Below are positions 5,170 through 62,465 of a DNA stretch of 64,000 nt, piece after piece. Source of the DNA: Leucothrix mucor DSM 2157. Its GTDB lineage: Bacteria > Pseudomonadota > Gammaproteobacteria > Thiotrichales > Thiotrichaceae. A program made the position numbers and the translations under genes. The stretch covers positions 2,028,655 through 2,092,654 of the forward strand of contig NZ_ATTE01000001.1 in the NCBI RefSeq assembly GCF_000419525.1. The letters run 5' to 3'. Position 1 is the stretch's first letter. Every line of letters begins with the position of its first letter. The notes beneath the pieces are model-generated. The model was not told the DNA's origin. It ran no database searches and saw only the letters and a list, made by a program, of their open reading frames with translations.

Positions 5170-6099
<930 letters not shown>

Positions 6100-19137: not shown

Positions 19138-19139
19138 CA

Positions 19140-19868
19140 ATGTCCACGCCTGCCAGCCTAAGCAATATCGACTTTTCCCATGCATTTCAACCTATTGTAG
19201 ATATCGATGAAGGCAAGATTATCTCGTATGAGGTACTGGTAAGAGGCCCTAACCAAGAGTCTCCGGCAACTGTATTTAGCCAAGTGACTAAGCAACAATT
19301 CATGGACTTTGATCAGCTGATCAGGGAAAGAGGCATCGCACAAGCTGCCTCACTTGGACTTAGCTGCTGCTTGAGTCTCAACTTTACACCCGGCGAAATC
19401 CTATTCGCGCATGGCGCTTATGTTGAGCGCACTATTAGCGTTGCAGAACAACACAATATCCATGCACATCAGCTCATTATCGAAATCACCGAAAGTGAGG
19501 CAATACTGGATTTGCCACTGTTAGCAGAAATCATCAACAAGCTACGCCGCAGTGGTATAGCCATCTCTATTGATGACTTTGGATCGGGTTATGCAGGCTT
19601 AAGCCTGCTTGCAGATATTCAACCTGACCAGGTAAAAATCGATATACACCTGATCAAAAACGTTAATAAAAACGGCCCTCGGCAAACCATTGTAAAAGCC
19701 ATTAATAATATTTGTCTGGATCTTGGCATTGACGTGCTGGCAGAAGGCGTCGAAAGCCACGAGGAGTTTTTATTTTTAGAACGTGCGGGAATATCGCTGT
19801 ATCAAGGTTGGTTTATCGCACGACCAGCATTTGAATCCCTGCCACTAACGTTTGACTTAAAGCCTTAA
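19140..19868 (+). CDS. EAL domain c-di-GMP phosphodiesterase (stand-alone)
   Basis: 242 aa. EAL catalytic motifs are present (EVLVR, EITE, DDFGSGYAG, KIDIHLI, EGVE, QG). Its start is 2 nt after the BLUF stop. Confidence 0.8.
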   Translation: MSTPASLSNIDFSHAFQPIVDIDEGKIISYEVLVRGPNQESPATVFSQVTKQQFMDFDQLIRERGIAQAASLGLSCCLSLNFTPGEILFAHGAYVERTISVAEQHNIHAHQLIIEITESEAILDLPLLAEIINKLRRSGIAISIDDFGSGYAGLSLLADIQPDQVKIDIHLIKNVNKNGPRQTIVKAINNICLDLGIDVLAEGVESHEEFLFLERAGISLYQGWFIARPAFESLPLTFDLKP

Positions 19869-27867: not shown

Positions 27868-27873
27868 AAGCGA

Positions 27874-30800: not shown

Positions 30801-31176
30801 ATGAGCCAATAAAATTCCGACCTTTTTCTGTACGACGTATTGGCCTTTTCCAAAAGCTTTCTAAGCCATAACTTATGAGTTCACTTCTTAGACCTTGCTT
30901 AAAATCACAACCTAATGACTTATCTGCCCACTCCCACGACCAGCTACCCTCTTCTGCTCCGTAGTCGCGCCGAAACCTTTCTGCTACAAATAAACAATAG
31001 AGCTCAGCCCAATGCTTACCTTTGATCGGGTCTGTAGCGAATCTAATATTGGCGATTAACTTATTTTTCAGGCTTTGAAATTCCTCAAATGTTACGTGAT
31101 AACTATACAAAGGCTTACCAGTTGGCCCAGCAAAACATTCACGAATAAAGAGAAACTCACTCAACCAAGCCTTCAT
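27874..31176 (-). CDS. Large protein of unknown function upstream of the helicase. DruH-like; candidate Druantia type III partner.
   Basis: 1100 aa with no recognisable motif. Its stop is 6 nt before the helicase start. Size and order (unknown ~1000-aa protein then DUF1998 helicase) match the type III Druantia architecture. Low GC. Confidence 0.45.
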   Translation of the reverse strand: MKAWLSEFLFIRECFAGPTGKPLYSYHVTFEEFQSLKNKLIANIRFATDPIKGKHWAELYCLFVAERFRRDYGAEEGSWSWEWADKSLGCDFKQGLRSELISYGLESFWKRPIRRTEKGRNFIGSLFLEGGLPWPLIKSETHGFGRVIRKGLKNYHSNKASLGTTSDMIASYEQDLPYTFHNLETRQLLAGVIEQLMHLAGKYPSLKQEIDPVEFLDKAEPRWKKDFPLPLNEANAKNLITDWLRDASKRQAENEIIKKTPNDFRCTHSIAGQVEGHWDLQAQLITPIAVTFPVDISALSSTRLEMAFYEGSVLIARGSIVYGEVQNGTELKVRLPRAPVVLKRRDCSESLSLALMDNGVAIYQTQFDASSIDFETAPVIFEVSGDQELLANASCSLRQPAVLVRLPPNADFTPAESVEIKHIQTDGVRWVLLSQETSIFLGSDKFRVRLNHPSVTQTFALDGKLLDFDSLPNAVYLGWPKLCQKSNEGSVYEYINGELVAKSRREIGGVFNYTLKNSSGEILFRRKFGVLPESFKVRLFAGDATRPARLEIMGGGECKFGVMGENISSRLEIIEGRSVISLSYRDAVPPSNLQLSVKGGEFLEPVILRLPFPYEGARLLDSSNNILTSESLIPEDLIGLSILLFSVGETQSFHLRMELQDKNFSTNVYLDYRLFKSGDVPLSVNLFAYQNDLRQILAAMESQDAYVKLTVESPQRRLMTVNIKRYNGSIAKDSTEVFTASDFTTGRVASGVNVSAMLLSDPKQTPIELRELTSQGVGTGRFVTDDSMYRDGPWLLYPEAESRVKFRPYLLVGQPASNTYSSGSKIHSLHEAARLYHPQNNPHVIDDQIAEMGSDLDHSGWQYLDDIKRKFDHLPLSTFESWLSLSRNPLTLAVSILRLEVDELFSDRMRDELSIIWESISLPIWSQAYKNYDRWLRGMGLPEFVINDMVDNRKAVLSNIVSGFESVEHYLSSGNNEVLTSLPPDLILPMWRDTLHESYQNTLWPKYLNGELSAWVEQQDFSKKIKALPLEKYEDSVVYLPIFMAYVTSGKSSIADLKMNSTMAELKFFVRKISDFDRTSWYRPAHALVTSYLLNKNDKD

Positions 31177-31427: not shown

Positions 31428-32573
31428 TCATTCCAAGCGCACCGTGCTATTCATCAGTCCTTCCAAGCCGCCATACACCTTCAGCTCACAAATATTGCTG
31501 GTAATACTTTCCAGTACTTCCAGCTCTTTCAAGCGCAATAGCACAGGATTACCTTCCATCAATTTGGCCGTATTATGCAGCGAACGCGTGGCCTGAGTTT
31601 CTTCACGACGACGAATCAAATTCGCTTCAGCCTGCTTTTCAGCCGCTACTACTTCAATCAGGATTTCCTTCATATCACCTGGTAACACGATATCTCGCAC
31701 GCCGACCTTTTTCAGGTCAAGGCCATAGGCTGACACACTCTCCAGCACTAGCTCATGCACTTGCTGGTTTAGCAGGTTTTTATCCGCCAACAATTGGTCC
31801 AGCGTTTGAGTCGAGACCACGCTGCGCAATGCCAGCTGCAGTTCACGATACAAAAACGCCTCATGATCTTTAATCGCATCACGGACTTTAATGGCATCCA
31901 ATACCTGCCACGTCGCTGAGACATTAATCCGCAGGCTCACCTTGTCCTTGGTTAAAATCTCCTGACCATTCACCTCCATGGTCTGCAAGCGCATATCCAT
32001 CATCTGCAAACTCACATACGGATTAACCAACCACCAGCCATGCTGGCCTTCTTGCAAAACGGCATGACGCACACCGCTCACCAATAAGAAACCGATATGT
32101 CCTTCCGGCACATAGCCCAGCGTGTACAAGCAAGTCACCAGGTGGCTTTTTAGCAATGGCTCACGGGTTTTCGCCAACTCATCCGCCAAGCTAGCGCTCA
32201 ACAGATAGCTATTGCTGATATCCAACGTGCGAAACTCCAACTCGCGCTTACCTTTCCAATACGCGCCACTACGACCTGGTGCGGCGATGTCTTTAAGCAC
32301 GCCGGCTTCGTAAAACATTCCAATAGCTTGCGGGCCAGTTTCCCAGCTCATCACATGCTCTGTGAATGCCTCCGGGTGCAACTCGACCAAGTGCAATAAA
32401 TCCTGATCGACGCGTCGAAACTCATTACTCACCGCATACTGCTGAATACTGATCTCACCGCGTAAATTCCAATGTTCATAACAGCCCGGCGTTAAAATCG
32501 CCTGAAACTGCTGATTTTTAAACAGCAATCCGCGGTGTGATTCCGGAATAATTGTTTTCATTTTGAATAACAT
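31428..32573 (-). CDS. SPFH/band 7 (stomatin/prohibitin/flotillin-like) domain protein
   Basis: 381 aa. Band-7 core (VSLRINVSATWQV...KKVGVRDIVLPGDMKEI) followed by a coiled-coil region EVVAAEKQAEANLIRRREETQA. Confidence 0.75.
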   Translation of the reverse strand: MLFKMKTIIPESHRGLLFKNQQFQAILTPGCYEHWNLRGEISIQQYAVSNEFRRVDQDLLHLVELHPEAFTEHVMSWETGPQAIGMFYEAGVLKDIAAPGRSGAYWKGKRELEFRTLDISNSYLLSASLADELAKTREPLLKSHLVTCLYTLGYVPEGHIGFLLVSGVRHAVLQEGQHGWWLVNPYVSLQMMDMRLQTMEVNGQEILTKDKVSLRINVSATWQVLDAIKVRDAIKDHEAFLYRELQLALRSVVSTQTLDQLLADKNLLNQQVHELVLESVSAYGLDLKKVGVRDIVLPGDMKEILIEVVAAEKQAEANLIRRREETQATRSLHNTAKLMEGNPVLLRLKELEVLESITSNICELKVYGGLEGLMNSTVRLE

Positions 32574-40380: not shown

Positions 40381-41481
40381 ATGACTCTAAAAAATGCCAT
40401 TTACCGATTACTACTGATCAGCCTGATCCCCGTATTACAGGCTTGTCAGCTCGATTCAACAGCCGCTGAGCAAGCAGAAGAAGCAAAACCGGAACCCATT
40501 CGTCCCGCATTAGTTTTTACACCAATTCGGATGAGCGGTGGTTCTGAGCGGACATTCCCAGCCGTTTTAGAAGCCACTGATCAGACCAATATGGCATTTC
40601 GGGTGGCAGGCCAACTCACCAAACTAACGGTTCAGCCCGGACAGTCCATCAAAAAAGGCCAACTAATTGCCCAACTGGATGACACCGACTTTCGCACCAC
40701 GCTAAGCGACTATCAGGCAAAGTTGGATCTGGCATCCACGCAGTACCAGCAAACCTATGGTTTGTACCAAAAGAACTATATCGCCAAGTCACAGTTAGAC
40801 TCTGCTCGCGCCGCATTACGCAGTGCCGAAGCCGCCGTCAAGCAAGGCAAAAGCAATCTGACTTACACCACGCTACGCGCACCCTTTAGCGGTGTAGTTG
40901 CTCATGTCAGTGTGGAGAATTTCCAGTTTATTCAGCCACAGCAAACCATTATTCAAATTCAGCGCTCTGGCGACTTAGGCATTCGTTTCGATGTGCCAGA
41001 GTCCGTCTTTACGCAAATGCGCCAAGTGAAAAACTACCAATCGCTGTGTGGTACAGTCAGCTTTAGCGCCTCTCCAGACTCTTACAAAGCCTGCTACAAA
41101 GAGCATGATTTAGTCCCTGATGCCCTCACCCGCAGCTACCCGGTGCTGTTTAATCTCGAAGTCCCAAAGAATGTGACCTTGCTAGCAGGTATGAGCGCCA
41201 ATATCACCATCGACCTCAGCGCCATCAGCTCCAATATGGATGATCGCAGCGTATTAGTTCCGGTAGAAGCGGTATTTGATCAGAACAATTCACAGTTCGT
41301 ATGGCGCGTAGAGCAGGATCTGAAATTGCACAAGCAGCCGGTTAAAGTCGGCGGCATTAGCAATAATATGATTCGCATTACTGAAGGCCTAAGCACCCAG
41401 GATCGTATCGTCGCGGCCGGCGTCAGCTACTTAGTTGAAGGCCAGCAGATTCGCATTTATGAAAAAGAACGTGGTCTATAA
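40381..41481 (+). CDS. RND efflux periplasmic adaptor subunit (membrane fusion protein)
   Basis: 366 aa with a lipoprotein-type signal (LQAC), a coiled-coil hairpin and biotinyl-like domains. Confidence 0.8.
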   Translation: MTLKNAIYRLLLISLIPVLQACQLDSTAAEQAEEAKPEPIRPALVFTPIRMSGGSERTFPAVLEATDQTNMAFRVAGQLTKLTVQPGQSIKKGQLIAQLDDTDFRTTLSDYQAKLDLASTQYQQTYGLYQKNYIAKSQLDSARAALRSAEAAVKQGKSNLTYTTLRAPFSGVVAHVSVENFQFIQPQQTIIQIQRSGDLGIRFDVPESVFTQMRQVKNYQSLCGTVSFSASPDSYKACYKEHDLVPDALTRSYPVLFNLEVPKNVTLLAGMSANITIDLSAISSNMDDRSVLVPVEAVFDQNNSQFVWRVEQDLKLHKQPVKVGGISNNMIRITEGLSTQDRIVAAGVSYLVEGQQIRIYEKERGL

Positions 41482-41493
41482 CAGGAAATAGCG

Positions 41494-44400
41494 ATGAGTA
41501 TTGCGGAAAGCTCGATCCGGAACAAAACCGTTAGCTGGATGGTCATCGTGTTGCTGATTATCGGCGGCTACATTTCCTTTCAGGGATTAGGACGATTAGA
41601 AGACCCGAACTTCACCATTAAGCAGGCGGTGATCGTGGTCCAATACCCTGGCGCCTCGGCTCAGGAAGTAGAAGAAGAAGTCACCCTGCCGATTGAAAAT
41701 GTCGTGCAGCAGCTGCCCTATCTGGACAAAGTCACCTCCACCACCATGAATGGTCTTTCCCAGATCATGGTGGAAATGAAGAGTATCTACCGTAAAGATG
41801 ATCTTGCCCAAATCTGGGATGAGATGCGCCGTAAAATCCGCGATATGGAAGGCAGCCTACCCTCCGGTGTCAGGACGCCAATCATCAACGATGACTTCGG
41901 CGATGTGTACGGCTACTACCTTGCCATTACCGGCGACGGCTACGAATACAACGACATCGAAAACTACGTCGACTACCTACGACGCGAGTTAATACTGGTT
42001 GATGGCGTTGGTAAAGTCACCGTGGGCGGCACCCGTTCGCGCCAATTGGTGATGGAAGTTGACCGCGCCAAAATGAACTCACTAGGGTTATCCGTCACCA
42101 CCCTGCAGCAGTTACTCGCCACTCAAAGCTTAGTCACCAATGCCGGTAGCATCCGCGTTGGCAGTGAATACATTCGCATTAAGCCCACCGGCACCGTCTC
42201 CAGCGTGGATGATTTGCGCAACCTGACCGTTGGCCGCAATGGCGATCAACTCGTCTATTTAAGCGATGTCGCCACCCTAAAGCTGGACTACGTCGACCCA
42301 CCCAGCCACATCTATCACTTTAACGGCAAGCCCGCGCTCACTCTTGGAATCTCATTCTCCAGTGGTGTAAACGTGGTGAATGTCGGTAAAGCCGTGCGCG
42401 ACCGCATGGAAGAACTCGAATACATGCGCCCGCTGGGCATTAATATCGGCACCATTTACGACCAACCATTACAAGTAGAAGCCTCGGTTGAAAACTTTGT
42501 TATTGGCTTGGCCGAATCCATCGGTATCGTTATCGTGGTTCTGCTGGTTGCCATGGGTTTGCGCCCTGGTATTTTAATGAGTTTTGTCTTACTGCTGACC
42601 ATTGCCGGCACCTTTATCGTGATGAAAATGGCCGGCATCGAGCTACACCGAATATCGCTGGGGGCGCTGATTATTGCGCTGGGGATGTTGGTGGACAATG
42701 CCATTGTCATCACCGAGGGGGTCATGATTGGCCTGCACAATGGCCTCACCCGAATTGAGGCCGCCAAGCGCATTGTTAAAAATACCAGCTGGCCACTGCT
42801 GGGAGCGACGGTGATTGCGATTACCGCCTTTGCGCCAATTGGCTTGTCGCCCGATGCCAGTGGTGAGTTTACCGGCAGCCTATTTTGGGTACTGCTGATC
42901 TCGCTGTTCTTAAGCTGGATATTGGCCATCACCATTACCCCCTTCCTCTGCTATTTGATGTTTAAAGAGGAAGCCGGTAAAGCCGAGCCTGGCGAGCAAT
43001 CTGACCCATACAAAGGTATTTTTTACCGCTTGTTCCGTGGACTCGTGCGCTTCTGCCTGCGCTTCCGCTGGTTCACTGTGCTGCTGATTATGCTGATGTT
43101 TGCCGCCTCGATTGTGGGCTTTGGTCAAGTGCGCCAAGCCTTCTTCCCTGATAGCCCGCTGCCGATGTTTATCGTCGATTACTGGCTACCGGAAGGCACC
43201 GACATTCGCGCCACCGAGGCCGATGCTGGCAAACTGGAAAAGTACGTCACCTCGCTGGATAGCGTCGAAGCCGTGACCACCACCATTGGCCGTGGTGCTG
43301 AGCGCTTTATGCTGACCTACAATGTCGAGTTTAATGCGCCAAGCTATGCACAGCTGATTGTGCGGGTGAAATCGTTTGATGATATCGAACCTGCCATCAA
43401 CCAACTGCGCAACTACACCACCGAGCACAATCCGCAAGCCTTTGTAAAATTTGGTCGCATGGCCATTGGCCCCGCCACCAAAGCAAAAATCGAAGCCCGC
43501 TTTATCGGCCCTGATCCACAAGTCTTACGGGCGCTGGGTGAAAAAGGCTTAGAGATTATGCGCGCCCAGCCGAACGCCATTAACGTACAGCAGGATTGGC
43601 GCGAGCGCAGCAAAGTCATCCGCCCCGTATTTAATGATGAGGAAGCACGACGCTTAGGCATTAGTAAATCGGATCTGGATAATGCAATTGCCCTGAATGT
43701 GAGCGGCCTAAGTATCGGCTTATATCGCCAAGGCTCTACCTTGCTGCCGATTGTATTGCGCCCACCGGAGAGTGAGCGCGGCACCGTCGAGCAGTTGAAA
43801 AACATTCAGGTGTATAGCCAAGCGCGCCAAGCGTATGTGAGCATTGAGCAAGTCATTGACCGTATCGATGTGGTCTGGGAAGACCCGCTGATTAAGCGTC
43901 GTGACCGCAAGCGCACGCTCTCAGTACTGGCTGATCCGGACACCGACAAAGGCAGTAACCCGGTCGCGCTGCTGGCGCAAGTCCGCCCTGCTTTTGAAGC
44001 AATTCCGCTAGAGCCCGGCTACTCACTGGAATGGGGTGGCGAGTTTGAAGCACAGGCCAAAGCCAATAAATCGGTGTTTGCCTTCGTGCCGCTCGGTGCC
44101 TTGCTGATGGTCGTGATTACCATGTTCATGTTTAACTCACTGCGCCAAACGCTGGTGATTTGGATAACCGTGCCGCTCGCCATTATCGGCGTGAGTGCCG
44201 GTCTGTTGATTATGAACACGCCCTTTAGTTTTACCGCGATGCTGGCGGTGCTGAGCTTAAGTGGCATGGTGATCAAAAATGGCATCGTACTGGTTGAGGA
44301 AATCAAGCTCCTCAATGAGGAAGAAAGTATGCCGTGGATTGAAGCCATTGAACAAGCCGCCGTCAGCCGGATGCGCCCTGTCACCATGGCGATGATCACC

Positions 44401-44658
44401 ACGGTGCTTGGGATGATCCCGCTGCTGCCCGACGTATTCTTCCGCCCGATGGCCGTGTCGATTATGTTTGGCTTGAGCTTTGCCACCATCCTCACGCTGA
44501 TTATGGTGCCGGTGTTATTTGCCCTGTTCTATCGGGTGAAATACCGCTCCCCCGCGCGCATTGCCAAGGATGAAGCGAAAGCGGCAGCTAAGCTTGCCAA
44601 GAAGCAGGCGAAGATCGATGCCAAGATTGCGAAGCAGCGAAAAGCAGCAGAAAGTTAA
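41494..44658 (+). CDS. RND efflux permease (AcrB/AcrD family)
   Basis: 1054 aa and 12 TM with two large periplasmic loops. The C-terminus is Lys/Ala-rich. Confidence 0.9.
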   Translation: MSIAESSIRNKTVSWMVIVLLIIGGYISFQGLGRLEDPNFTIKQAVIVVQYPGASAQEVEEEVTLPIENVVQQLPYLDKVTSTTMNGLSQIMVEMKSIYRKDDLAQIWDEMRRKIRDMEGSLPSGVRTPIINDDFGDVYGYYLAITGDGYEYNDIENYVDYLRRELILVDGVGKVTVGGTRSRQLVMEVDRAKMNSLGLSVTTLQQLLATQSLVTNAGSIRVGSEYIRIKPTGTVSSVDDLRNLTVGRNGDQLVYLSDVATLKLDYVDPPSHIYHFNGKPALTLGISFSSGVNVVNVGKAVRDRMEELEYMRPLGINIGTIYDQPLQVEASVENFVIGLAESIGIVIVVLLVAMGLRPGILMSFVLLLTIAGTFIVMKMAGIELHRISLGALIIALGMLVDNAIVITEGVMIGLHNGLTRIEAAKRIVKNTSWPLLGATVIAITAFAPIGLSPDASGEFTGSLFWVLLISLFLSWILAITITPFLCYLMFKEEAGKAEPGEQSDPYKGIFYRLFRGLVRFCLRFRWFTVLLIMLMFAASIVGFGQVRQAFFPDSPLPMFIVDYWLPEGTDIRATEADAGKLEKYVTSLDSVEAVTTTIGRGAERFMLTYNVEFNAPSYAQLIVRVKSFDDIEPAINQLRNYTTEHNPQAFVKFGRMAIGPATKAKIEARFIGPDPQVLRALGEKGLEIMRAQPNAINVQQDWRERSKVIRPVFNDEEARRLGISKSDLDNAIALNVSGLSIGLYRQGSTLLPIVLRPPESERGTVEQLKNIQVYSQARQAYVSIEQVIDRIDVVWEDPLIKRRDRKRTLSVLADPDTDKGSNPVALLAQVRPAFEAIPLEPGYSLEWGGEFEAQAKANKSVFAFVPLGALLMVVITMFMFNSLRQTLVIWITVPLAIIGVSAGLLIMNTPFSFTAMLAVLSLSGMVIKNGIVLVEEIKLLNEEESMPWIEAIEQAAVSRMRPVTMAMITTVLGMIPLLPDVFFRPMAVSIMFGLSFATILTLIMVPVLFALFYRVKYRSPARIAKDEAKAAAKLAKKQAKIDAKIAKQRKAAES

Positions 44659-47073: not shown

Positions 47074-47325
47074 TTAGAATCTCCTCAAGCCATCACTAAA
47101 CACGCCGCGCTGTTCAACTCTTTGATTATAAGCCTCTAGCGCTTCACTGTTCTGCTCCAGCCACTCAGCACGCTTTTTCTCGGCCAGCACTGCCACAAGA
47201 GCCTGTTCCAGTACTTTTGAAAGGTTAAGCTTATAGTGTCGCGCCTCCTCTAAAAGATTTTCATTAACATTTAGCTTCAAAGAGCATGTGGTAGCTGTTG
47301 CGTCATAAATTAATGCCTTTTGCAT
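47074..47325 (-). CDS. CcdA-like antitoxin family protein (orphan)
   Basis: 83 aa. The pattern LNVNENLLEEARHYKLNLSKVLEQAL...WLEQNSEALEAYNQRVEQRGVFSD resembles CcdA. No ccdB-like gene is adjacent. Confidence 0.45.
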   Translation of the reverse strand: MQKALIYDATATTCSLKLNVNENLLEEARHYKLNLSKVLEQALVAVLAEKKRAEWLEQNSEALEAYNQRVEQRGVFSDGLRRF

Positions 47326-48416: not shown

Positions 48417-49271
48417 ATGCTCACCAACAGATGGAAACCCACTATGCACACCGTTAACGTCGAATCGGAACTTGAATACAGTATCGCTTCACCCTCCAGT
48501 TTTGTCTTCAATATTGCGCCCGCTTTTACCCAGCATCAAATGATCTCAAATGAGAACCTGACCGTTTCTCCAGACACTAATATCGAATGGTGCATGTTGA
48601 ATCAACTGGGCGTGCGAGGCATTCGGATCAATGCTGGGCCTGGCGACTTTAAGATTCGCTACAGCGCCACGGTGGCGTTATCGCCGGAAGTCGATCAGCC
48701 AAGTTATCTAAATGAAGTACGCCATCCGGTGATTCCGACCGATGTGCTGCCATACTTAAACCCTAGCCGTTATTGCGAATCCGACCGCTTGGGGCGCTTT
48801 GCCGCGAAAGAATTCGGGCATTTGGATGGCGGCTATTACCGCGTTCAGGCGATTTGCGACTGGGTGTTTAACCACATTGACTACATCTCTGGCAGCACCG
48901 ATGCCTCATCAAGCGCTTGCGATGTGCTCATCCAGCGTGCGGGAGTGTGTCGCGACTTTGCACATGTCAGCATTTCATTGTGCCGCGCATTGGGCATTCC
49001 GGCGCGTTATGTTGGTGGCTATGCGGCCGGTTTAGAGCCGCCCGATTTCCACGGCTTTTTTGAAGTGTATTTAAATGAAGACTGGTACATGTTTGATGCC
49101 ACCAAAATGGCACCCGTGAGTGGCTTTGTGCGCGTTGGCATTGGCCGCGATGCAGCGGATACCTCATTTGCAAGCATTGTAGGACAGGCGACTTTTGTCT
49201 CCATGCGCGTGAGTGCGGTTGCGGTAGATTCCAGTCAGCCCAGCCCTGATGATGCTATTTCAACGGCATAA
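48417..49271 (+). CDS. Transglutaminase-like cysteine peptidase family protein
   Basis: 284 aa with a Cys-His-Asp core (GVCRDFAHV...HGFFEVY...D). Confidence 0.7.
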   Translation: MLTNRWKPTMHTVNVESELEYSIASPSSFVFNIAPAFTQHQMISNENLTVSPDTNIEWCMLNQLGVRGIRINAGPGDFKIRYSATVALSPEVDQPSYLNEVRHPVIPTDVLPYLNPSRYCESDRLGRFAAKEFGHLDGGYYRVQAICDWVFNHIDYISGSTDASSSACDVLIQRAGVCRDFAHVSISLCRALGIPARYVGGYAAGLEPPDFHGFFEVYLNEDWYMFDATKMAPVSGFVRVGIGRDAADTSFASIVGQATFVSMRVSAVAVDSSQPSPDDAISTA

Positions 49272-49312
49272 GACTTCACTCTGAAGCCCTATGCCATTGG
49301 GTCTGGACGTAA

Positions 49313-49840
49313 TTAAGCCTTGCGCTCCAGACCTAACCAGTAGTCCAGCGACAATTTACCCGGCCCTGCAACCACAATAGCAGCAGCCACTGCAAACCAC
49401 CAAGACGCAGGATTCATCCAATGCGACCACTCGGGGAATACAGCCAGCTGGATAAAGGCAACCATCGCGACGATTCCCAGCGCAGCAAAGCGGCTAAATA
49501 ATCCAATAATCAATAACACCGGCAGCACAACTTCCATCACGCCCGCGGTTACCGCTAGATATTTGATGACGGTGACGGTGGTTGAGCCATCCACATATTC
49601 CAGTGTTTCAGGATTGCACAGTTGCAGTGCGCCGGCGCGTGGCTCTTCGGGACAAAAAAACTCATACATAAACAAGTCATACACACCGGGATCAGGCTTT
49701 AAAAATCCGCTCCATTTGGCAAGGCCAGAGAGGATAAACACATAAGCAATCTGCACACGCAAACCCAGCATAACGATCGGTTTAAACCATTGCTCGATTC
49801 GCTCAAAGAAGCCACTGTAAAGGGAAGTTAAAAAGCTCAT
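49313..49840 (-). CDS. DoxX family membrane protein (bufferin cluster, BufD-like)
   Basis: 175 aa with four TM segments. It is the last gene of the DUF2282-DUF692-DUF2063-DoxX operon. Confidence 0.7.
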   Translation of the reverse strand: MSFLTSLYSGFFERIEQWFKPIVMLGLRVQIAYVFILSGLAKWSGFLKPDPGVYDLFMYEFFCPEEPRAGALQLCNPETLEYVDGSTTVTVIKYLAVTAGVMEVVLPVLLIIGLFSRFAALGIVAMVAFIQLAVFPEWSHWMNPASWWFAVAAAIVVAGPGKLSLDYWLGLERKA

Positions 49841-49887
49841 AGGGGTAGTCTCGAATTTATTGTTAGTTTGTTGATGGTTATAGGTCT

Positions 49888-50718
49888 TTAGGATGATTCA
49901 ACAGCGGCTTTGAGTTGTAGCAGCTGTGCATTGAGCAAGTCGGCAAACAGGCTGGATAAATCAAAACTTTCATCGACCTCGTTAGCGGCAGCCGCGGCCT
50001 GATCGAAATTTGTGTGTTGCAGCATTTGCATAAAGACTGCTTCTGCGGCGTTTAACGGTCGGGCTTGTACCCTGCCATCTAGCTGCCAGAATAAAATGGT
50101 GGTGGTGTTTAACTTTAGCTCTATGGCAGAGTCCGGAGTTTGCTCGCCAAAGCGCAAGGTGCTCCAGAGCTCCATTAAGTCATACTGCAAGCTCACTAAG
50201 CGGCTGGAGTCGACTAAGGCTAATGGCAATGCGCCAAGGTCTTCGCCTTGCGCAATCAATGCCTGAACCTGCTCCAAGCTTAAAAAGTCTTCGCCATTGG
50301 CATTCAACGCTTGCAACCAAGCCTGATCCAATGCGCAGATATCAGTTAAATACGGGTACTGTTTAACGATCGCGCCATGACGCTGATTTAGGTATTCAAT
50401 AAAGCTGAGCGTGGCATATTCATCGCTATCCACCCCAAAACCATAGCCAACTAAAGTCGCAGTGGCGGGAGGATTTTCTTGCACATAAGCAGCAGCCAGT
50501 TGCCCAAAAAACTCCTCACCCAGTAGCACCGGCAAGCAGGGTAAATTACTCTGTAACGCGCCAATGCTGGCTTTAATATAGCCATTGCGATAAACACTGA
50601 GAAACGCAGCCGGTCGACTACCGTCTAAAAACGGCAATACATCATTCTGGTTACCAGAGTGCATAAACTGCGTAAAGGCATTAATATAATCAGCATGTGT
50701 GTTTTCTGAATTAGCCAT
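49888..50718 (-). CDS. DUF2063 protein (MbnC/BufC-like RiPP recognition partner)
   Basis: 276 aa. It overlaps the upstream DUF692 gene by 8 nt, with typical DUF692-DUF2063 pairing. Confidence 0.65.
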   Translation of the reverse strand: MANSENTHADYINAFTQFMHSGNQNDVLPFLDGSRPAAFLSVYRNGYIKASIGALQSNLPCLPVLLGEEFFGQLAAAYVQENPPATATLVGYGFGVDSDEYATLSFIEYLNQRHGAIVKQYPYLTDICALDQAWLQALNANGEDFLSLEQVQALIAQGEDLGALPLALVDSSRLVSLQYDLMELWSTLRFGEQTPDSAIELKLNTTTILFWQLDGRVQARPLNAAEAVFMQMLQHTNFDQAAAAANEVDESFDLSSLFADLLNAQLLQLKAAVESS

Positions 50719-51637
50719 TAATGACCGCCTGCTGTTTATTTATTTCAGCACTATTTAATAATAAATCCTGTGCACGATTTCGCTCATTCATTAATTCAGA
50801 AAACTGCGGAATATTATCATCGCGCTCTAATAAAACGGGCTTAGTGCCCAGTGTTTTAATTGTGGTTTCTAATAATGACCAAACCGCTTCATCAACCGGT
50901 GCAGCGTGGCTATCAATCAATAATTCATCAGGGTAATTCTGGTCCACATCAAATCCTGCAATGTGAATTTCACCGACTTTCTCAGGCGCTAATGCATTTA
51001 AATAAGCGATTGGATCAAGGCCGGTATTCTGCTGGCTGAGGTAGAGGTTATTCACATCTAACAGCAAGCCTGCGCCAGTGCGCTTGAGTGCTTCCATTAG
51101 AAAATCCGCTTCATCCATATCAGATACGAAGTCTAAATAGTTGGTGGGGTTTTCTATCAAAATACTGCGGCCAATGGCTTCCTGATAACGATCAATTCCC
51201 TCGCACAAACAGGCCAGTGCCTGCTCCGTTCTGGGTAGTGGCAACAGCTCGGCAAAGTAAGCGTGCTGGCTAACTGACCAAGTTGCATGCTCTGAGACCA
51301 GTACCGGATTAAAGCATTTAACCAGACCTGCGACTTGAGCCAAGTGCCGTGTTGTCAGGGCTGAAGGCTTATCCGTGTAAGAACCTAGCGAACCACCAAC
51401 CCCATGAAAGCTAAGCGGAAAGCGTTCGGATATTGCTTGCAGGTAACGCAGCCTTGGGCCGCCATCCACAAAGTAATTTTCGGTATGCACCTCAAACCAG
51501 ACATCCGAATCGATGCTGGTTTGAGCCTGAGTATCAGCAAGGGAAAGTGCTTCGTCGTAGTGCTGGGGTTTTAAATTCACCCCAGCACCAAACAAGCGCT
51601 GCTGACCCGAATCAAATGGAGGGATTTGATTCGTCAT
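50711..51637 (-). CDS. DUF692 multinuclear non-haem iron oxidase (MNIO; MbnB/BufB-like)
   Basis: 308 aa with a TIM-barrel DUF692/UPF0276 signature (FEVHTENYF, SFHGVGGSLGS). Confidence 0.8.
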   Translation of the reverse strand: MTNQIPPFDSGQQRLFGAGVNLKPQHYDEALSLADTQAQTSIDSDVWFEVHTENYFVDGGPRLRYLQAISERFPLSFHGVGGSLGSYTDKPSALTTRHLAQVAGLVKCFNPVLVSEHATWSVSQHAYFAELLPLPRTEQALACLCEGIDRYQEAIGRSILIENPTNYLDFVSDMDEADFLMEALKRTGAGLLLDVNNLYLSQQNTGLDPIAYLNALAPEKVGEIHIAGFDVDQNYPDELLIDSHAAPVDEAVWSLLETTIKTLGTKPVLLERDDNIPQFSELMNERNRAQDLLLNSAEINKQQAVING

Positions 51638-51640
51638 GGC

Positions 51641-52012
51641 TTATGGCAGGTTGCGATCTAGTTCAGTTTTAGACGCTGGGCCTTCTGGTGTGTTGATGAA
51701 CTCGCAGCTGCCTTTGGGTGCATAAGTCCAGGCGTTTCCTTGGAAATCAACGGTTGAAGTACCCTGACAGCTAGTGCCTGCACCGGCTTTACAATCGTTC
51801 TCTGCACTCAATGCAATTCCGTAGCATTTATCTTTACGGCCTGATATTGCTGCGCCGCCAACCCAAGCATTAAAACTCTCTTTTACATTCGTTGGGGCTT
51901 CAGCCGATATTCTTAATTGATCATTGGGTTTTGCATTGGCAACAGAGCCTACTAATGCTAATGCTGCGCCGGCCATTAATGCTTTGCTAATTGAGTTACT
52001 CATAACTTCCAC
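51641..52012 (-). CDS. DUF2282 secreted Cys-containing peptide precursor (bufferin BufA-like)
   Basis: 123 aa with a signal peptide and the conserved core [43 protein letters not shown] containing four Cys. Confidence 0.75.
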
Positions 52013-52199
52013 CTTATAAAATTAATTAAGTTGTTTAATTCATAACATCGTTTCAATGTTGTTTCTATTTACGCGAGGCTTGTTTTTTTGGATGCTAAAT
52101 AATTTACTTTTTTTAATGTTGTATGATTTTCTGGTATCCCATGCACTACACTAAGCACTATTATCTCAATATAAAATTCACCAGTCAGGGAGAAAAATC

Positions 52200-58621: not shown

Positions 58622-61153
58622 CTAGCCACCGACATTCACAAACACCTGAATGGCATTGGCACGGCCTTGAGCATCGCTAATGGCATACCAAAAACTATCC
58701 ATACCAGTAAAGCCAGTGCGTGGCTTGTAGTTTAGTTTGTTATTTACCGCCGCGACTGTCGCGCCATTGACCGAGTACTGGTTAACATCCAGAATGCTCA
58801 AACCAACGCCGGTATCGTTTGCCAACACATCAATCGTCAGCGCTGTGTTTAGCCCCGTGCTAACCGTCTCGCTAATAGCTACCGGATAAGGTGCTTCACC
58901 AGTCACATTAATAGTCACCTGACCACTATTTAAGCGACCTTGGAAGTCCATCAACACATACCAGAGCTTGTCCTCACCCACAAAATCTTGCTTTGGCGTG
59001 TAGACAATTTTACCCGTGACAATCGACACCCGACCACCGCGTAATGACCAAGGATTAGAGCTGGAAATACTCAAGCCCACACCCGTATCGTTAGCCAGTA
59101 CATCAATAGTCAGCTCAGTGTTCGCAGGCGTACTCACGGCATCATTCACGCCAACGGGGTATGGATTAGTATCGGCAACGGCTTTCACATTCCATAACTG
59201 AGGCAAGTGGCTTGGGATAAAGTTATAGCTGATGGCATCGGCATTGACCGCATTTTCACGACGGTCCAGCGCTTGTGACTTACAATGCTGCGGGCGGAAG
59301 TTAAACTGACCACCATTGCGGGTGAGAATCCAACGGCGGTTTTTACCTACATCGGAAGTCGCTCCGGAGATCGTACTTAAGTTAGCACAGGCCGAATTCT
59401 CAACTTCTAAGAAGCGACCGCTAAAGGTATTTTGGATGGTATAGATACGGCTGCCAAGATGCTTAATCTTCCAGCGCTGATCATCCCAAGGGCCAGCGTT
59501 AACCATGCGTGATTTGAAACTATTCCAGCTTGGTGCGGCTAAGCGTTGCTCGGTATCTGGCGCTTCTAACCAATACTCCCCATCGGCCAGTAGCGGCGCA
59601 ACAAAGGCATCCCCCACGCGGACAACTTTAGAAATACTGGGAGTGCCGGCTGCATTCATTGCAAACAGCATGTAATTGCCCGGTGGTGCCAGATTGCGGC
59701 TTGGCATTTTAACTGAGTAATTGCGCGGCGCATTCACATCAAAACTTAAGGGTACACGGCGTTGTTCGTTATTCACACTGTGCGTTGCAGAGCTGGCGCG
59801 GACTAATGACATTGAGCTGATATCTGTGTCAGTAATCACATTGATATAGCCATCGTAGGTGGCGGTAGTCGGTGCTGAGGTAATAACAGGACGCGTGGCT
59901 AAAGTGCTGCTGCCCTCATTAAACAAATATGGTGGCGAGTAAATTTCCGCATCGGGATGGTTCGTGGTACAGGTGTTACACAGGCCGCCACCGCCAACAA
60001 AAATACGTCCATCATTCAGCAAAATAGCGCTGCTGTGATAGGTGCGTGGTGTGGCCATTGCGGCTAGCTGAGTCCAGGTTTTAGTAGCAGGGTTCCACAG
60101 TTCTGGCGTAAGTACCGCATCTAAATCAGAGAAGATGATGGTCTTTTTCATGCCGCCAACCACAAACACTTCACCGTTAGGTAACACAACCGAATTATGC
60201 AGCGTGCGGGCAAAGGCCATGTTCTGCACTTCTTCAACCACTGGCGTGTCATTATTGATGTCGATAATGTGCGTTAGTTTCGTACCGGGATAGCCGCCGC
60301 CATAGGCTTCTGCGCCCCCTACTTTCAGAATTTTGCCAACATCGTACATCACGGTCGTGCCGTTCATGGAGTACGGATCATTACCGCGAGTTCCAGCGTT
60401 GACGACTTTATTCGCGCCATCCGGGTCAATCCAATGCATATTCCGACTTGGGCCTGCATGGAAAATTTTTCCGTTAGGTGCCGCCCACAGCCACGCGTGG
60501 TTATCATCACGGTACTCGCCTTGTGGCTCCTCTTCCGAACCATCGCGCACCGTGGCATCGGAGGTGATTTCAGGGTAAGCCACCCAACCGGACTCCTGCG
60601 TCCATAACTCGGCGTTCTTACCGCCAATTGGCCCACTCCATGAGCCGCCCAGCGTAAACACCGAGCCATCACCCATGGTGACATTGCCTTGGTAACCGCG
60701 AATCGTGTTCATCGCTTCACCTGCTTCCCAATTGCCGGTCGCGGGATTGTAAATACTAGTTTTGTCGTTACCCGAACCACCTGCGACTAACACGCGCCCA
60801 TCCGGCAAGTTATTAATACCCGGACAAAACATATCGTGGCCGGTATTGCTAACGAGTACCGTGGATGAGGTTTGGTTATAAGGGTCGAAAATAGAGGTAT
60901 AGGTTTTGCCCTCATTGCCGCCGAAGGCGAGTCGGTCTTTGGCTGACCACGTTAGCAAATTGCCATCGGGCAGATTGGCCACCGCCACCGGCACGATTTC
61001 CATTGGAATAACGTTAGTCCAGCTACCGCTTTGAGAGTTGGCCAGTGCATTCGCTGATATCGCCAATGGCATCAGCAGCAAAGCATGGCGTAGTAATTGT
61101 GTTTTCATAGTGTGAGTCCCTTCTTCCTTTAGGCGAGCTGATTCAATAAGCAA
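58622..61153 (-). CDS. Secreted galactose-oxidase/glyoxal-oxidase-like kelch beta-propeller protein with ricin-B-like lectin module and two tandem Ig/cadherin-like C-terminal repeats
   Basis: 843 aa with a signal peptide (MKTQLLRHALLLMPLAISANALA) and a kelch-type propeller. It also has a QxW-containing beta-trefoil segment and two about 95-aa repeats (...LTIDVLANDTGVGLSI...). Confidence 0.5.
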   Translation of the reverse strand: MLIESARLKEEGTHTMKTQLLRHALLLMPLAISANALANSQSGSWTNVIPMEIVPVAVANLPDGNLLTWSAKDRLAFGGNEGKTYTSIFDPYNQTSSTVLVSNTGHDMFCPGINNLPDGRVLVAGGSGNDKTSIYNPATGNWEAGEAMNTIRGYQGNVTMGDGSVFTLGGSWSGPIGGKNAELWTQESGWVAYPEITSDATVRDGSEEEPQGEYRDDNHAWLWAAPNGKIFHAGPSRNMHWIDPDGANKVVNAGTRGNDPYSMNGTTVMYDVGKILKVGGAEAYGGGYPGTKLTHIIDINNDTPVVEEVQNMAFARTLHNSVVLPNGEVFVVGGMKKTIIFSDLDAVLTPELWNPATKTWTQLAAMATPRTYHSSAILLNDGRIFVGGGGLCNTCTTNHPDAEIYSPPYLFNEGSSTLATRPVITSAPTTATYDGYINVITDTDISSMSLVRASSATHSVNNEQRRVPLSFDVNAPRNYSVKMPSRNLAPPGNYMLFAMNAAGTPSISKVVRVGDAFVAPLLADGEYWLEAPDTEQRLAAPSWNSFKSRMVNAGPWDDQRWKIKHLGSRIYTIQNTFSGRFLEVENSACANLSTISGATSDVGKNRRWILTRNGGQFNFRPQHCKSQALDRRENAVNADAISYNFIPSHLPQLWNVKAVADTNPYPVGVNDAVSTPANTELTIDVLANDTGVGLSISSSNPWSLRGGRVSIVTGKIVYTPKQDFVGEDKLWYVLMDFQGRLNSGQVTINVTGEAPYPVAISETVSTGLNTALTIDVLANDTGVGLSILDVNQYSVNGATVAAVNNKLNYKPRTGFTGMDSFWYAISDAQGRANAIQVFVNVGG

Positions 61154-61751: not shown

Positions 61752-61767
61752 ATATGAGGTGATAATC

Positions 61768-62067
61768 ATGAAGACTGCAGCCATCAATGCACGTATAGCC
61801 CCTGAGCTAAAAGAAGATGTTGAGTCCATCTTATCTCGTCTTGGCATGACAACAACGCAAGCAATTACCATGTATTTTGAGCAGATCAAGATGAAGCGTG
61901 GTTTACCTTTTTCCGTCACCTTAGCCGATGATGCTGAGCTGCAAGCAGCCACGCCACAGGCTAAAGGCTGGCCCGAGGGCTATTTCGAGAGCTTAGCTGC
62001 TTGGGAAGGAGAAGATATTGTTCGACCGGATCAAGGTGAATACGAAACGCGCTTGGAGTTTGATTAA
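61768..62067 (+). CDS. Type II antitoxin, RHH/DinJ-RelB-like (partner of PIN toxin)
   Basis: About 99 aa from the ATG at 61768 (RBS GAGG). N-terminal ribbon-helix-helix region ARIAPELKEDVESILSRLGMTTTQAITMYFEQI. Its stop overlaps the vapC start (TAATG). Confidence 0.6.
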   Translation: MKTAAINARIAPELKEDVESILSRLGMTTTQAITMYFEQIKMKRGLPFSVTLADDAELQAATPQAKGWPEGYFESLAAWEGEDIVRPDQGEYETRLEFD

Positions 62068-62465
62068 TGTATTTACTGGATACAAATACCTGCATTCAAA
62101 TCATTAATCGCCCTACGGGTGTCGTTGCAGAGCGGTTCCGTCGACACGAGCCTCATGAAATCAATTTGTGCAGTGTTGTAAAAGCAGAATTATATTACGG
62201 AGCCCGAAAAAGCCAGCAGGTGGAATCAAACCTTGAACGGATGAAGTTCTTCTTCGCACCATTAGGAAGCCTCCCTTTTGATGATCGTTGCGCCGCAGAG
62301 TATGGTCAAATCAAAGCGATCTTGGCAGCTCAAGGCCAGCTGATTGGGCCGAATGATTTACTGATTGCGGCTATTGCTCGTGCTTACGACGCCGTGTTTG
62401 TCACCAATAATACTCGTGAGTTTTCTCGGGTCACAGGCTTACGTTTAGAAGACTGGCAATCCTAG
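62067..62465 (+). CDS. vapC: PIN-domain toxin VapC
   Basis: 132 aa with PIN acidic residues (LLDTN ... E ... D ... NTREF). Confidence 0.8.
   Translation: MYLLDTNTCIQIINRPTGVVAERFRRHEPHEINLCSVVKAELYYGARKSQQVESNLERMKFFFAPLGSLPFDDRCAAEYGQIKAILAAQGQLIGPNDLLIAAIARAYDAVFVTNNTREFSRVTGLRLEDWQS

What the first reader, a model, noticed from the sequence alone, without database searches (positions are those of the whole stretch)
49313..52012. Complete bufferin-type RiPP gene cluster (DUF2282 precursor, DUF692 MNIO, DUF2063 partner, DoxX)
Four co-directional minus-strand genes with overlapping or very close boundaries. They are a secreted 4-Cys DUF2282 peptide (KCYG...DCKAG...SCQG...GSCE), a DUF692 multinuclear non-haem iron oxidase, a DUF2063 protein and a DoxX membrane protein. 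This is the architecture recently described for bufferins, copper-binding RiPP metallophores made by MbnB/MbnC-like enzymes. These were described only recently and their role in this lineage is probably unstudied.
Basis: established knowledge. Interest (0 to 1): 0.6.

Follow-up and report, generated by a model that had tools for sequence, protein, structure and literature searches.

The report
Bufferin copper-peptide operon in Leucothrix
This is an ordinary, complete four-gene operon for a bufferin, a secreted peptide whose cysteines are enzymatically converted into copper-binding rings, and it belongs to a little-described marine sub-lineage with a longer peptide, an altered membrane partner and no adjacent regulator.

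Summary
Four tightly packed minus-strand genes at 49313-52003 encode BufA (DUF2282/BufA1 precursor with a signal peptide and four Cys), BufB (MNIO), BufC (DUF2063 partner) and BufD (DoxX). Two details need correcting: bufA starts at the ATG at 52003, not the GTG at 52012, and DUF2282 is PF10048, not PF09987.

The bufABCD order recurs in 59 genome loci plus two further loci. BufB keeps the full MNIO iron-ligand set. The BufC model matches only MNIO partner proteins (TglI, NGO1945). The two central Cys lie in a motif almost identical to that of Caulobacter BufA1.

The window is from Leucothrix mucor, and current Pfam and UniRef naming already recognises these families.

It belongs to a distinct long-form lineage (Thiotrichaceae, Marinomonas, Gynuella, Hyphomonas) with three features:
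- A conserved 35-residue structured extension between the signal peptide and the DUF2282 domain.
- A 24-residue loop with two Cys in DoxX, predicted to be periplasmic.
- No linked sigF/nrsF and no GTAACC-N16-CGAA box; a different ECF-like box sits upstream instead.

The peptide modification, copper binding and regulation are inferred, not shown. Verdict: a new member of a known, very abundant kind, of modest interest.

The parts
51641..52003 (-). bufA: 120-aa bufferin-1 precursor. It has a signal peptide, a 35-aa conserved extension and a DUF2282/BufA1 domain, with Cys60, Cys71, Cys79 and Cys100.
   Evidence: Pfam PF10048, 2.3e-20. ATG and Shine-Dalgarno sequence read. Orthologue alignments. 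1788 homologues with E<=0.001.
51932..52003 (-). Sec-type signal peptide, residues 1-24 (MSNSISK / [14 protein letters not shown] / ANA, predicted cleavage before KPN).
   Evidence: n-, h- and c-regions and an A-x-A site read from the sequence. A24 is invariant and K25 and P26 nearly invariant across 62 homologues. No signal-peptide predictor was available.
51827..51931 (-). Lineage-specific N-terminal extension of the mature peptide, residues 25-59 ([35 protein letters not shown]). It contains no Cys, His or Met.
   Evidence: Conserved in 62 long-form homologues, with N27, L30, W47, G50 and G55-D58 invariant. Absent from Caulobacter and Burkholderiales BufA. The AlphaFold2 model gives pLDDT 81-93 for residues 31-60, with a helix at 38-48.
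51689..51835 (-). DUF2282/BufA1 domain. The two central Cys (Cys71, Cys79 in [15 protein letters not shown]) are the inferred thiooxazole sites, and the outer Cys60 and Cys100 are the inferred disulfide pair.
   Evidence: Pfam stretch. Caulobacter sp. L024 has [15 protein letters not shown]. The roles of the central and outer Cys come from PMC11626156 and PMC12452194. The loop 69-86 has pLDDT below 50.
50711..51637 (-). bufB: a multinuclear non-haem iron oxidase (MNIO, DUF692), 308 aa.
   Evidence: Pfam PF05114, 1.1e-82. NCBIfam MNIO_BufB 309 bits against a cutoff of 310. PDB relatives 3BWW and MbnB. H51, H78, H117, E162, D194, N197, H225, D242, H244 and E271 are conserved in at least 97% of 58 sequences.
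49888..50718 (-). bufC: DUF2063/HvfC_N partner protein (PME type 1), 276 aa. A helical N-domain is followed by a beta-sheet/helix C-domain.
   Evidence: Pfam PF09836, 1.8e-12. AlphaFold2 pLDDT 86. The only Foldseek PDB hits with E<=1e-3 are TglI (8HI7_A, 8HCI_A) and NGO1945 (3DEE). It is 100% identical to a Leucothrix mucor protein.
49313..49840 (-). bufD: DoxX-family membrane protein, 175 aa. It carries a lineage-specific ~24-aa loop insertion (YEFFCPEEPRAGALQLCNPETLEYVDG) with Cys63 and Cys75.
   Evidence: Pfam DoxX 4.8e-9 and DoxD 6e-5. Insertion seen in the alignment. Present in 16 of 16 long-form loci and 0 of 36 short-form loci, and also in L060 and L061. The loop 43-92 has 8 D/E against 2 K/R, so it is inferred to be periplasmic.
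52068..52095 (-). ECF-like promoter candidate, GCATCC-N16-CGTAAA, 65-92 nt upstream of the bufA ATG.
   Evidence: It aligns with TGATCT-N16-CGTAT in Thiotrichaceae relatives. The exact pattern occurs in 6 loci, once each, always upstream of bufA. In the window alone it is not above chance. Function is inferred.
52044..52060 (-). Short inverted repeat, AACATTG-AAA-CGATGTT, just downstream of the promoter candidate. It could be a 5'-leader hairpin or an operator.
   Evidence: Its counterpart in relatives is GACATC-N4-GATGTC, and in Hyphomonas CACGAC-N7-GTCGTG. Thermodynamically unremarkable: -5.7 kcal/mol, z -0.13.
49262..49299 (.). 18-bp hairpin between the convergent bufD and transglutaminase genes. 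It is a probable bidirectional terminator marking the operon's end.
   Evidence: dG -26.8 kcal/mol, z -7.1, with 0 of 200 shuffles folding as well. There is no T-run, so the consensus terminator scan did not list it.

Best explanation
The region is a self-contained bufABCD operon of Leucothrix mucor that makes a Buf1-type bufferin (a 'captophorin').

Inferred pathway:
1. BufA is translated as a 120-aa precursor.
2. In the cytoplasm the BufB-BufC complex (iron-dependent MNIO plus a DUF2063/RRE-like partner) uses O2 to convert the two central cysteines (Cys71, Cys79) into 5-thiooxazoles.
3. The Sec system exports the peptide and signal peptidase cuts after Ala24.
4. In the periplasm Cys60 and Cys100 form a disulfide.
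5. The 96-residue folded product sequesters excess Cu(I)/Cu(II).

Shown here: gene identities, operon structure, conservation of the catalytic and substrate residues, and the partner-protein fold.

Inferred from the Caulobacter work: the chemistry, the export route, copper binding and the protective role.

This copy belongs to a long-form lineage with three differences from the Caulobacter model:
- The mature peptide has an extra structured 35-residue N-terminal segment.
- DoxX has a loop with two Cys, predicted to be periplasmic.
- Transcription probably depends on an unlinked ECF-type sigma factor acting on a GCATCC-N16-CGTA box, not on an adjacent sigF-nrsF pair.
For: Family assignments for all four proteins are above the Pfam thresholds, and the best NCBIfam match is MNIO_BufB.

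The A-B-C-D order recurs in 59 genome loci from Thiotrichaceae to Caulobacter and Burkholderiales, and these are the only genes shared by 17 long-form loci.

The four Cys are invariant in 62 homologues. The central motif [15 protein letters not shown] differs by one residue from Caulobacter sp. BufA. The Caulobacter vibrioides homologue was shown to carry two thiooxazoles and one disulfide, to be cut at the signal-peptidase site and to bind Cu (PMC11626156).

In BufB, H51, H78, H117, E162, D194, N197, H225, D242, H244 and E271 are conserved in at least 97% of sequences. They align with the MbnB and 3BWW motifs. N197, D242 and H244 match the HvfB site-3 ligands N175, D242 and H244 that are needed for activity.

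The BufC model (pLDDT 86) hits only TglI and NGO1945.

In the BufA model the Cys71/Cys79 loop is flexible and the extension is confident.

Regulatory contrast: GTAACC-N16-CGAA plus a divergent ECF sigma gene is present in nearly all short-form loci and absent from the long-form loci. The alternative box is positionally conserved.
Against: No experiment on this organism exists in the searched literature.

The MNIO_BufB score is 1 bit below the NCBIfam equivalog cutoff, and neither BufA nor BufC hits any NCBIfam model.

BufB is only 42-50% identical to the short-form BufB proteins, including those of the Caulobacter loci (43-49%); BufC is ~30% and BufD ~27% identical to the Caulobacter sp. proteins. 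Substrate chemistry or metal preference could therefore differ.

The mature peptide has no His or Met, so all metal binding would rest on the two modified Cys.

No copper-homeostasis gene or metal sensor is adjacent.

The window's promoter box is not statistically distinguishable from chance on its own. One sigma-70-like site also exists upstream.

DoxX was dispensable in Caulobacter, so its role here is unknown.
Confidence: 0.8

Rival explanations
1. The biosynthetic chemistry is the same (a thiooxazole peptide), but the physiological role and trigger differ. In this reading the long-form lineage responds to another stress, such as a different thiophilic metal, hypochlorite/oxidative stress or sulfur stress. 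The Cys-pair DoxX would act as a periplasmic thiol:quinone redox partner of the peptide.
For: There is no linked sigF/nrsF and no GTAACC-N16-CGAA box, and the upstream box is a different one.

The DoxX loop with two conserved Cys co-occurs perfectly with the long BufA: 16 of 16 against 0 of 36, plus L060 and L061.

The literature notes that doxX genes suggest protection from other stresses, and that SigF/NrsF systems also answer to chromate, cadmium or HOCl.

No copper genes are nearby.
Against: All characterised products of MNIO-PME1 clusters bind copper.

The co-occurrence is explained equally well by common descent of one operon lineage.

DoxX is dispensable for modification and for copper protection in Caulobacter.
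Confidence: 0.15
2. A methanobactin-like chalkophore system that acquires copper from the environment for cuproenzymes, rather than detoxifying it.
For: BufB is homologous to MbnB. A secreted galactose-oxidase-like protein, a family I know as copper radical oxidases, is encoded 6.6 kb away.
Against: The MbnB equivalog score is 48.9 against a cutoff of 325.

The precursor is a 96-residue Sec-exported folded protein, not a short leader-core peptide.

None of the Pfam-scanned ORFs between 38174 and 61153 had an MbnC, TonB-dependent receptor or MATE-exporter domain; the one RND (AcrB-type) transporter with its membrane-fusion partner at 40381-44658 is 4.7 kb from the operon and not conserved with it.

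The literature places bufferins in periplasmic sequestration.
Confidence: 0.03
3. The older annotations are right: DUF2282 is a 'predicted integral membrane protein' and DUF2063 a 'putative DNA-binding' regulator. On this reading the cluster is not a RiPP pathway.
For: The Pfam description lines and the NCBI name 'DNA-binding domain-containing protein' say so.
Against: BufA has a single N-terminal hydrophobic segment ending in A-x-A, followed by a polar 96-residue domain.

The BufC fold matches MNIO partner proteins, including TglI crystallised in complex with its MNIO.

The Caulobacter homologues were reconstituted in vitro.

Newer Pfam has renamed the families BufA1 and HvfC_N.
Confidence: 0.02

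Closest known systems
Caulobacter vibrioides buf1ABCD (bufferin 1; CCNA_03363-03366), Leprevost et al. PNAS 2024 (PMC11626156)
   Same: The same four families are in the same order. The precursor has a Sec signal peptide and four Cys, and the central Cys motif is nearly identical. The MNIO ligand set is conserved. There is a DUF2063 partner with an RRE-like C-domain, and DoxX is the last gene.
   Different: - Identity to Caulobacter sp. proteins is 61% for the BufA domain, 49% for BufB, 30% for BufC and 27% for BufD.
- The mature peptide here has a 35-residue conserved structured extension before CysI.
- DoxX has a 24-residue loop with two Cys.
- There is no divergent sigF-nrsF and no GTAACC-N16-CGAA promoter.
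Captophorins in general (fontiphorin, oxazolin/HvfA, gonophorin; MNIO-PME1 clusters), PMC13097082
   Same: An MNIO plus DUF2063/PME1 pair acts on Cys of a signal-peptide-bearing precursor. A DoxX gene often accompanies them. Thiooxazole chemistry and copper binding are expected.
   Different: The precursor is of the DUF2282 class, not EGKCG/Lys-Cys repeats. The HvfB equivalog scores 190.6 against a cutoff of 360, and HvfX 35.8 against 80.
Methanobactin MbnABC
   Same: A homologous MNIO (MbnB) modifies Cys of a ribosomal peptide into a copper-binding heterocycle plus a sulfur ligand.
   Different: The precursor, partner protein (MbnC), product (oxazolone/thioamide), export route and uptake machinery all differ, and the role is copper acquisition. 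The MbnB model score is far below its cutoff.
Long-form BufA1 operons of Leucothrix, Cocleimonas, Marinomonas, Gynuella and Hyphomonas (uncharacterised; L001-L016, L060, L061)
   Same: These are direct orthologues: BufB 62-76% and BufA 67-80% identical in L001-L016. They have the same N-terminal extension and the same DoxX loop with two Cys (L001-L016, L060, L061). L001-L016 lack an adjacent ECF sigma gene, and L060 and L061 have no sigma-factor Pfam family among their called genes.
   Different: The -35/-10 boxes differ by genus: TGATCT-N16-CGTAT in other Thiotrichaceae, GGAACC-N16-GTCTA in Marinomonas and Gynuella, and GCATCC-N16-CGTAA here. L. arctica has a second, repeat-tailed bufA.

Membership tests
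Buf1 (DUF2282) bufferin BGC | The precursor matches the DUF2282/BufA1 profile above threshold. | tested here: met
   PF10048, 72.8 bits against a gathering score of 22.4.
Buf1 (DUF2282) bufferin BGC | [quoted passage not shown] | tested here: met
   A basic n-region, a 14-residue hydrophobic core and an ANA|K cleavage motif. The cleavage-site residues are conserved in 62 homologues. This was judged by inspection only, because no predictor was available.
Buf1 (DUF2282) bufferin BGC | Four conserved Cys (CysI-IV); the central two are the PTM sites. | tested here: met
   C60, C71, C79 and C100 are invariant in alignment A2. They align with the Caulobacter and Burkholderiales Cys.
Buf1 (DUF2282) bufferin BGC | An adjacent MNIO (DUF692) enzyme of the BufB type with an intact metal-ligand set. 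| tested here: met
   PF05114, 1.1e-82. The ligand positions are conserved. Caveat: the NCBIfam MNIO_BufB equivalog scores 309 bits against a cutoff of 310, just under it.
Buf1 (DUF2282) bufferin BGC | A DUF2063 / PME-type-1 partner protein with an RRE-like C-terminal domain, encoded after the MNIO gene. | tested here: met
   PF09836, 1.8e-12. Model pLDDT 86. The only significant PDB fold matches are TglI and 3DEE. The gene overlaps bufB by 8 nt.
Buf1 (DUF2282) bufferin BGC | A DoxX gene in the cluster (a frequent core component, not essential). | tested here: met
   PF07681, 37.2 bits against 23.6. The HvfX equivalog is below its cutoff, 35.8 against 80.
Buf1 (DUF2282) bufferin BGC | Linked sigF / nrsF regulators and a GTAACC-N16-CGAA promoter. 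These are present in a subset of Buf1 BGCs and do not define the family. | tested here: not met
   No ECF sigma gene lies next to bufA in the window or in L001-L016, whereas one lies there in 36 short-form loci. The exact box is absent, and the window has only a 2-mismatch version.
Buf1 (DUF2282) bufferin BGC | 5-thiooxazole modification of the central Cys, and a CysI-CysIV disulfide. | not testable with these tools
   This needs LC-MS/NMR of the product. It is inferred from PMC11626156.
Buf1 (DUF2282) bufferin BGC | Copper binding, copper induction and copper protection. | not testable with these tools
   No data were found for Leucothrix. It is inferred from Caulobacter.
Methanobactin (Mbn) cluster | An MbnB equivalog, MbnC, an MbnA precursor and transport genes. 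| tested here: not met
   TIGR04159 scores 48.9 against a cutoff of 325. No MbnC or TonB-receptor domain was found in the Pfam-scanned ORFs flanking the operon. MbnA itself was not searched for.
HvfABC / oxazolin (EGKCG) cluster | An HvfB equivalog and an EGKCG-repeat precursor. | tested here: not met
   NF003818 scores 190.6 against a cutoff of 360. BufA contains no EGKCG repeat.

The most novel reading that the evidence does not exclude
The long-form lineage could be a functionally distinct bufferin subtype in which the peptide and DoxX work together. On this reading the conserved 35-residue N-terminal module of mature BufA docks onto, or is recognised through, the co-evolved loop of BufD that carries two Cys and is predicted to be periplasmic. 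BufD would act as a membrane thiol:quinone oxidoreductase that sets the redox state of the thiooxazole thiols or of the CysI-CysIV disulfide. That would give DoxX its first defined role in these clusters. The operon would be controlled by an unlinked ECF sigma factor with a different -35 specificity, and possibly a different inducing signal.
Probability: 0.12. Interest if true: 0.55.

Novelty: new member of a known kind. Interest (0 to 1): 0.3.

Why it matters
Bufferins (captophorins) are now thought to be among the most abundant RiPP classes and a widespread periplasmic copper defence. One more instance adds little on its own.

This instance does document that Leucothrix mucor, a filamentous marine epibiont, and its relatives carry a coherent sub-lineage. 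That sub-lineage has an extended peptide, a DoxX with a Cys pair and no linked regulator.

It could therefore be a useful comparative system for three open questions in the field:
- What DoxX does.
- How the BufBC complex recognises its substrate. The signal peptide is dispensable in Caulobacter, and the extension here is a candidate recognition element.
- How clusters without sigF/nrsF are regulated.

Tried and rejected
1. Linked regulators. An RpoE-seeded phmmer search of all ORFs in the window and 59 loci found ECF sigma genes only next to short-form clusters. Pfam on 20 flanking window ORFs found no sigma, anti-sigma or metal sensor. Marinomonas neighbours are housekeeping genes.

2. Prevalence of the extension. 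I tried to measure how widespread the N-terminal extension is by searching it alone against 1.84 billion representatives. A 36-residue query is too short for that. Only two truncated long-form BufA representatives passed, along with giant repeat proteins sharing a short 'FN.W..G..ISG' motif. This is uninformative and probably a motif coincidence.

3. 5'-leader inverted repeat. It is not thermodynamically significant. The alignment register shifts by one column, so a formal covariation count was not attempted.

4. Sigma-70 promoter and terminator consensus scans were at chance level.

5. Other buf genes. There is no second bufA or other buf homologue elsewhere in the window.

6. Sequence search of PDB with BufA and BufC found nothing. 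Only fold comparison identified BufC's relatives.

7. The afdb50 fold library was unavailable.

8. I rejected treating pirin (divergent) and transglutaminase (convergent) as cluster members. They are not conserved next to buf genes in any relative.
Full report
**Observation**

The window carries four co-directional minus-strand ORFs at 49313-52012. Read on the minus strand:
- The bufA stop is 3 nt from the bufB ATG.
- bufB and bufC overlap by 8 nt (ATGGCTAA).
- bufC and bufD are 47 nt apart.

Pfam assigns the four proteins to DUF2282 (PF10048, 72.8 bits), MbnB_TglH_ChrH/DUF692 (277.7 bits), DUF2063 (47.8 bits) and DoxX (37.2 bits). All are above their gathering scores.

Two details of the finding need correcting:
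- The ORF finder's GTG at 52012 sits inside the Shine-Dalgarno sequence AAGGTGGA (52008-52015). The real start is almost certainly the ATG at 52003, which gives a 120-aa precursor. This matches the orthologues and the closest database protein, which is 120 aa and 96% identical.
- DUF2282 is PF10048, not PF09987.

**Source organism**

BufC is 100% identical to a protein of Leucothrix mucor on a 5.1-Mb contig. The nearest genome loci are Leucothrix and Cocleimonas (Thiotrichaceae), followed by Marinomonas and Gynuella.

**Is it a unit?**

A tblastn survey of the 59 genome loci recovered with BufB shows the same A-B-C-D order essentially everywhere, from Thiotrichaceae to Caulobacter and Burkholderiales.

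Clustering all flanking ORFs of 17 long-form loci shows that the four buf genes are the only shared genes. The window's neighbours are not conserved with the cluster and are not part of it. They are pirin (divergent), CBM48, an amine oxidase, a hydrolase, GGDEF and fumarase on one side. On the other side they are transglutaminase (convergent), fasciclin, an orphan CcdA and Usp.

An 18-bp hairpin at 49262-49299 (dG -26.8 kcal/mol, z -7.1) lies between bufD and the convergent transglutaminase gene. It probably ends the operon.

**The precursor (BufA)**

BufA has a typical Sec signal peptide ([24 protein letters not shown]|K) followed by a 96-residue polar mature part with exactly four Cys and no His or Met. 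All four Cys are invariant in 62 homologues.

The central motif [15 protein letters not shown] differs by one residue from that of Caulobacter sp. BufA. In C. vibrioides Buf1 the following were shown experimentally (PMC11626156, PMC12452194):
- The central Cys are converted into 5-thiooxazoles.
- The outer two Cys form a disulfide.
- The signal peptide is removed at the predicted site.
- The product binds copper in the periplasm and protects against copper.

In the AlphaFold2 model the loop carrying Cys71 and Cys79 is the low-confidence part (pLDDT below 50). That is what one would expect of a substrate loop.

**The enzymes**

BufB:
- Its best NCBIfam match is the MNIO_BufB equivalog, at 309 bits, 1 bit below the 310 cutoff. 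HvfB, ApyH, MbnB and ChrH score far below their cutoffs.
- Across 58 BufB sequences, H51, H78, H117, E162, D194, N197, H225, D242, H244 and E271 are at least 97% conserved.
- These residues lie in the HG, SEH, EN, DxxN, HIAG, DxH and ERD motifs that align with MbnB and 3BWW. From my own knowledge of the MbnB structures, these are the iron ligands.
- N197, D242 and H244 correspond to the HvfB site-3 residues N175, D242 and H244. Substituting those abolishes activity.

BufC:
- It has no sequence relative in the PDB.
- Its AlphaFold2 model (pLDDT 86) matches only three chains at E<=1e-3. Two are TglI, the partner of the MNIO TglH. The third is NGO1945/3DEE, the founding DUF2063/PME-1 structure.
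- This settles that BufC is an MNIO partner and not a DNA-binding regulator, as older annotation says.

**What distinguishes this copy**

The loci fall into two groups.

Short-form clusters (Caulobacter, Burkholderiales and others):
- BufA is roughly 95-110 aa.
- A divergently transcribed ECF sigma gene lies immediately upstream.
- Upstream of bufA they carry an exact or near-exact GTAACC-N16-CGAA. This is the sigma-F box determined experimentally in Caulobacter (PMC3511200).

The long-form group comprises the window, L001-L016, Hyphomonas johnsonii (L060) and L061. It differs in three linked ways:

1. Extension of mature BufA. It begins with a conserved 35-residue extension, KPNxQL..(A)..F..W..G...GRKDK. 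N27, L30, W47, G50 and GRKD are invariant. The extension is predicted with high confidence (pLDDT 81-93) to form a helix plus a strand that packs on the DUF2282 domain.

2. Insertion in BufD. It carries a ~24-residue insertion, YEFFCPEE.R.GAL.LC.P.TL.Y, with two conserved Cys, in the first extramembrane loop. That loop is strongly acidic, so the positive-inside rule places it in the periplasm. The insertion is present in 16 of 16 long-form loci and 0 of 36 short-form loci, and also in the alphaproteobacterial L060 and in L061.

3. Regulation. L001-L016 and the window have no adjacent ECF sigma gene and no sigma-F box, and no sigma-factor family is recorded among the genes called in L060 and L061. 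Thiotrichaceae instead share TGATCT-N16-CGTAT 70-90 nt upstream of bufA. The exact pattern is found in six loci, once each, always at that position. Marinomonas and Gynuella have GGAACC-N16-GTCTA. The window has GCATCC-N16-CGTAAA at 52068-52095. The geometry and the -10 CGT are typical of ECF-dependent promoters, so I infer control by an unlinked ECF sigma factor. This remains an inference. In the window alone the box is not above chance.

**Mechanism (best explanation, confidence about 0.8)**

Steps 1 to 5 are inferred by homology to the Caulobacter system; none was shown here:
1. BufBC modifies Cys71 and Cys79 of the precursor to 5-thiooxazoles in the cytoplasm.
2. Sec exports the peptide and signal peptidase cleaves it.
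3. The Cys60-Cys100 disulfide forms in the periplasm.
4. The folded 10-kDa product buffers copper.
5. BufD's role is unknown.

The perfect co-occurrence of the BufA extension and the BufD Cys loop allows a speculative direct BufA-BufD redox interplay. Common descent of one operon lineage explains the co-occurrence just as well.

Rivals:
- The same chemistry with a different stress signal or metal (about 0.15).
- A methanobactin-like acquisition system (about 0.03).
- The old 'membrane protein plus DNA-binding protein' annotation (about 0.02).

**Comparison with what is known, and novelty**

This is a member of the Buf1 bufferin family, which now falls under the proposed class name captophorins (PMC13097082). 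The family is curated: newer Pfam names are BufA1 and HvfC_N, and UniRef has 'BufA1 family periplasmic bufferin-type metallophore'. More than 20,000 such clusters are reported in RefSeq, and published Buf1 lengths of 80-120 residues already include this size.

I found no description of the long-form extension, of the DoxX Cys loop or of the alternative promoter in the papers read. I also found no bufferin or copper-homeostasis work on Leucothrix among the listed hits.

My verdict is a new member of a known kind, with sub-lineage features worth a sentence in a comparative study. Interest is about 0.3.

Noticed in passing
window 21550-31176 (minus strand), within the low-GC stretch at about 20-32 kb: A Druantia type III anti-phage defence pair. 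DruE3 is a 2105-aa helicase (PADLOC PDLC00037, 2412 bits) and DruH3 is 1100 aa (PDLC00050, 1208 bits). They lie in an island with GC near 0.42, against about 0.49 elsewhere. An SPFH/Band-7 gene is next to them at 31428-32573.
   Followed up: partly
L003 (Leucothrix arctica) 4919-5533: A second bufA gene in tandem, upstream of the regular one. Its C-terminus carries about 13 NPCAA(K) repeats, so a Cys-rich repeat tail is fused to a long-form DUF2282 domain.
   Followed up: no
L061 4624-6813: A second MNIO plus HvfC_N pair, with an 87-aa signal-peptide precursor rich in CKG/CKT motifs (Buf2-like or Cys-Lys type). It lies directly upstream of the long-form bufABCD, giving two captophorin clusters back to back.
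   Followed up: no
window 52044-52060 (minus strand), with equivalents in L001, L004-L008 and L060: A short inverted repeat lies just downstream of the promoter-like box: AACATTG-AAA-CGATGTT here, GACATC-N4-GATGTC in relatives and CACGAC-N7-GTCGTG in Hyphomonas. The arms change sequence but stay complementary, which suggests a 5'-leader hairpin or an operator. It is energetically weak.
   Followed up: partly
window 51827-51931 (BufA residues 25-59), compared with P0171 and P0175: The motif 'V..FN.W..G..ISG..D' in the extension resembles a unit repeated many times in giant proteins (2967 aa and 375 aa). The summed E-value is 9e-13, but each stretch scores only about 26 bits. It is probably a short helix-turn motif coincidence.
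   Followed up: partly
window 49262-49299: A very stable 18-bp hairpin (dG -26.8 kcal/mol, z -7.1) lies between the convergent bufD and transglutaminase genes. It has no T-tract on either strand.
   Followed up: partly
window 47074-47325; 61759-62465; 18706-19868; 58622-61153: Four other features: an orphan CcdA antitoxin with no adjacent CcdB-sized ORF; a RelB-PIN toxin-antitoxin pair; a BLUF sensor next to an EAL phosphodiesterase; and a secreted 843-aa galactose-oxidase-like protein with Kelch, Big_9, cadherin-like and ricin domains.
   Followed up: no
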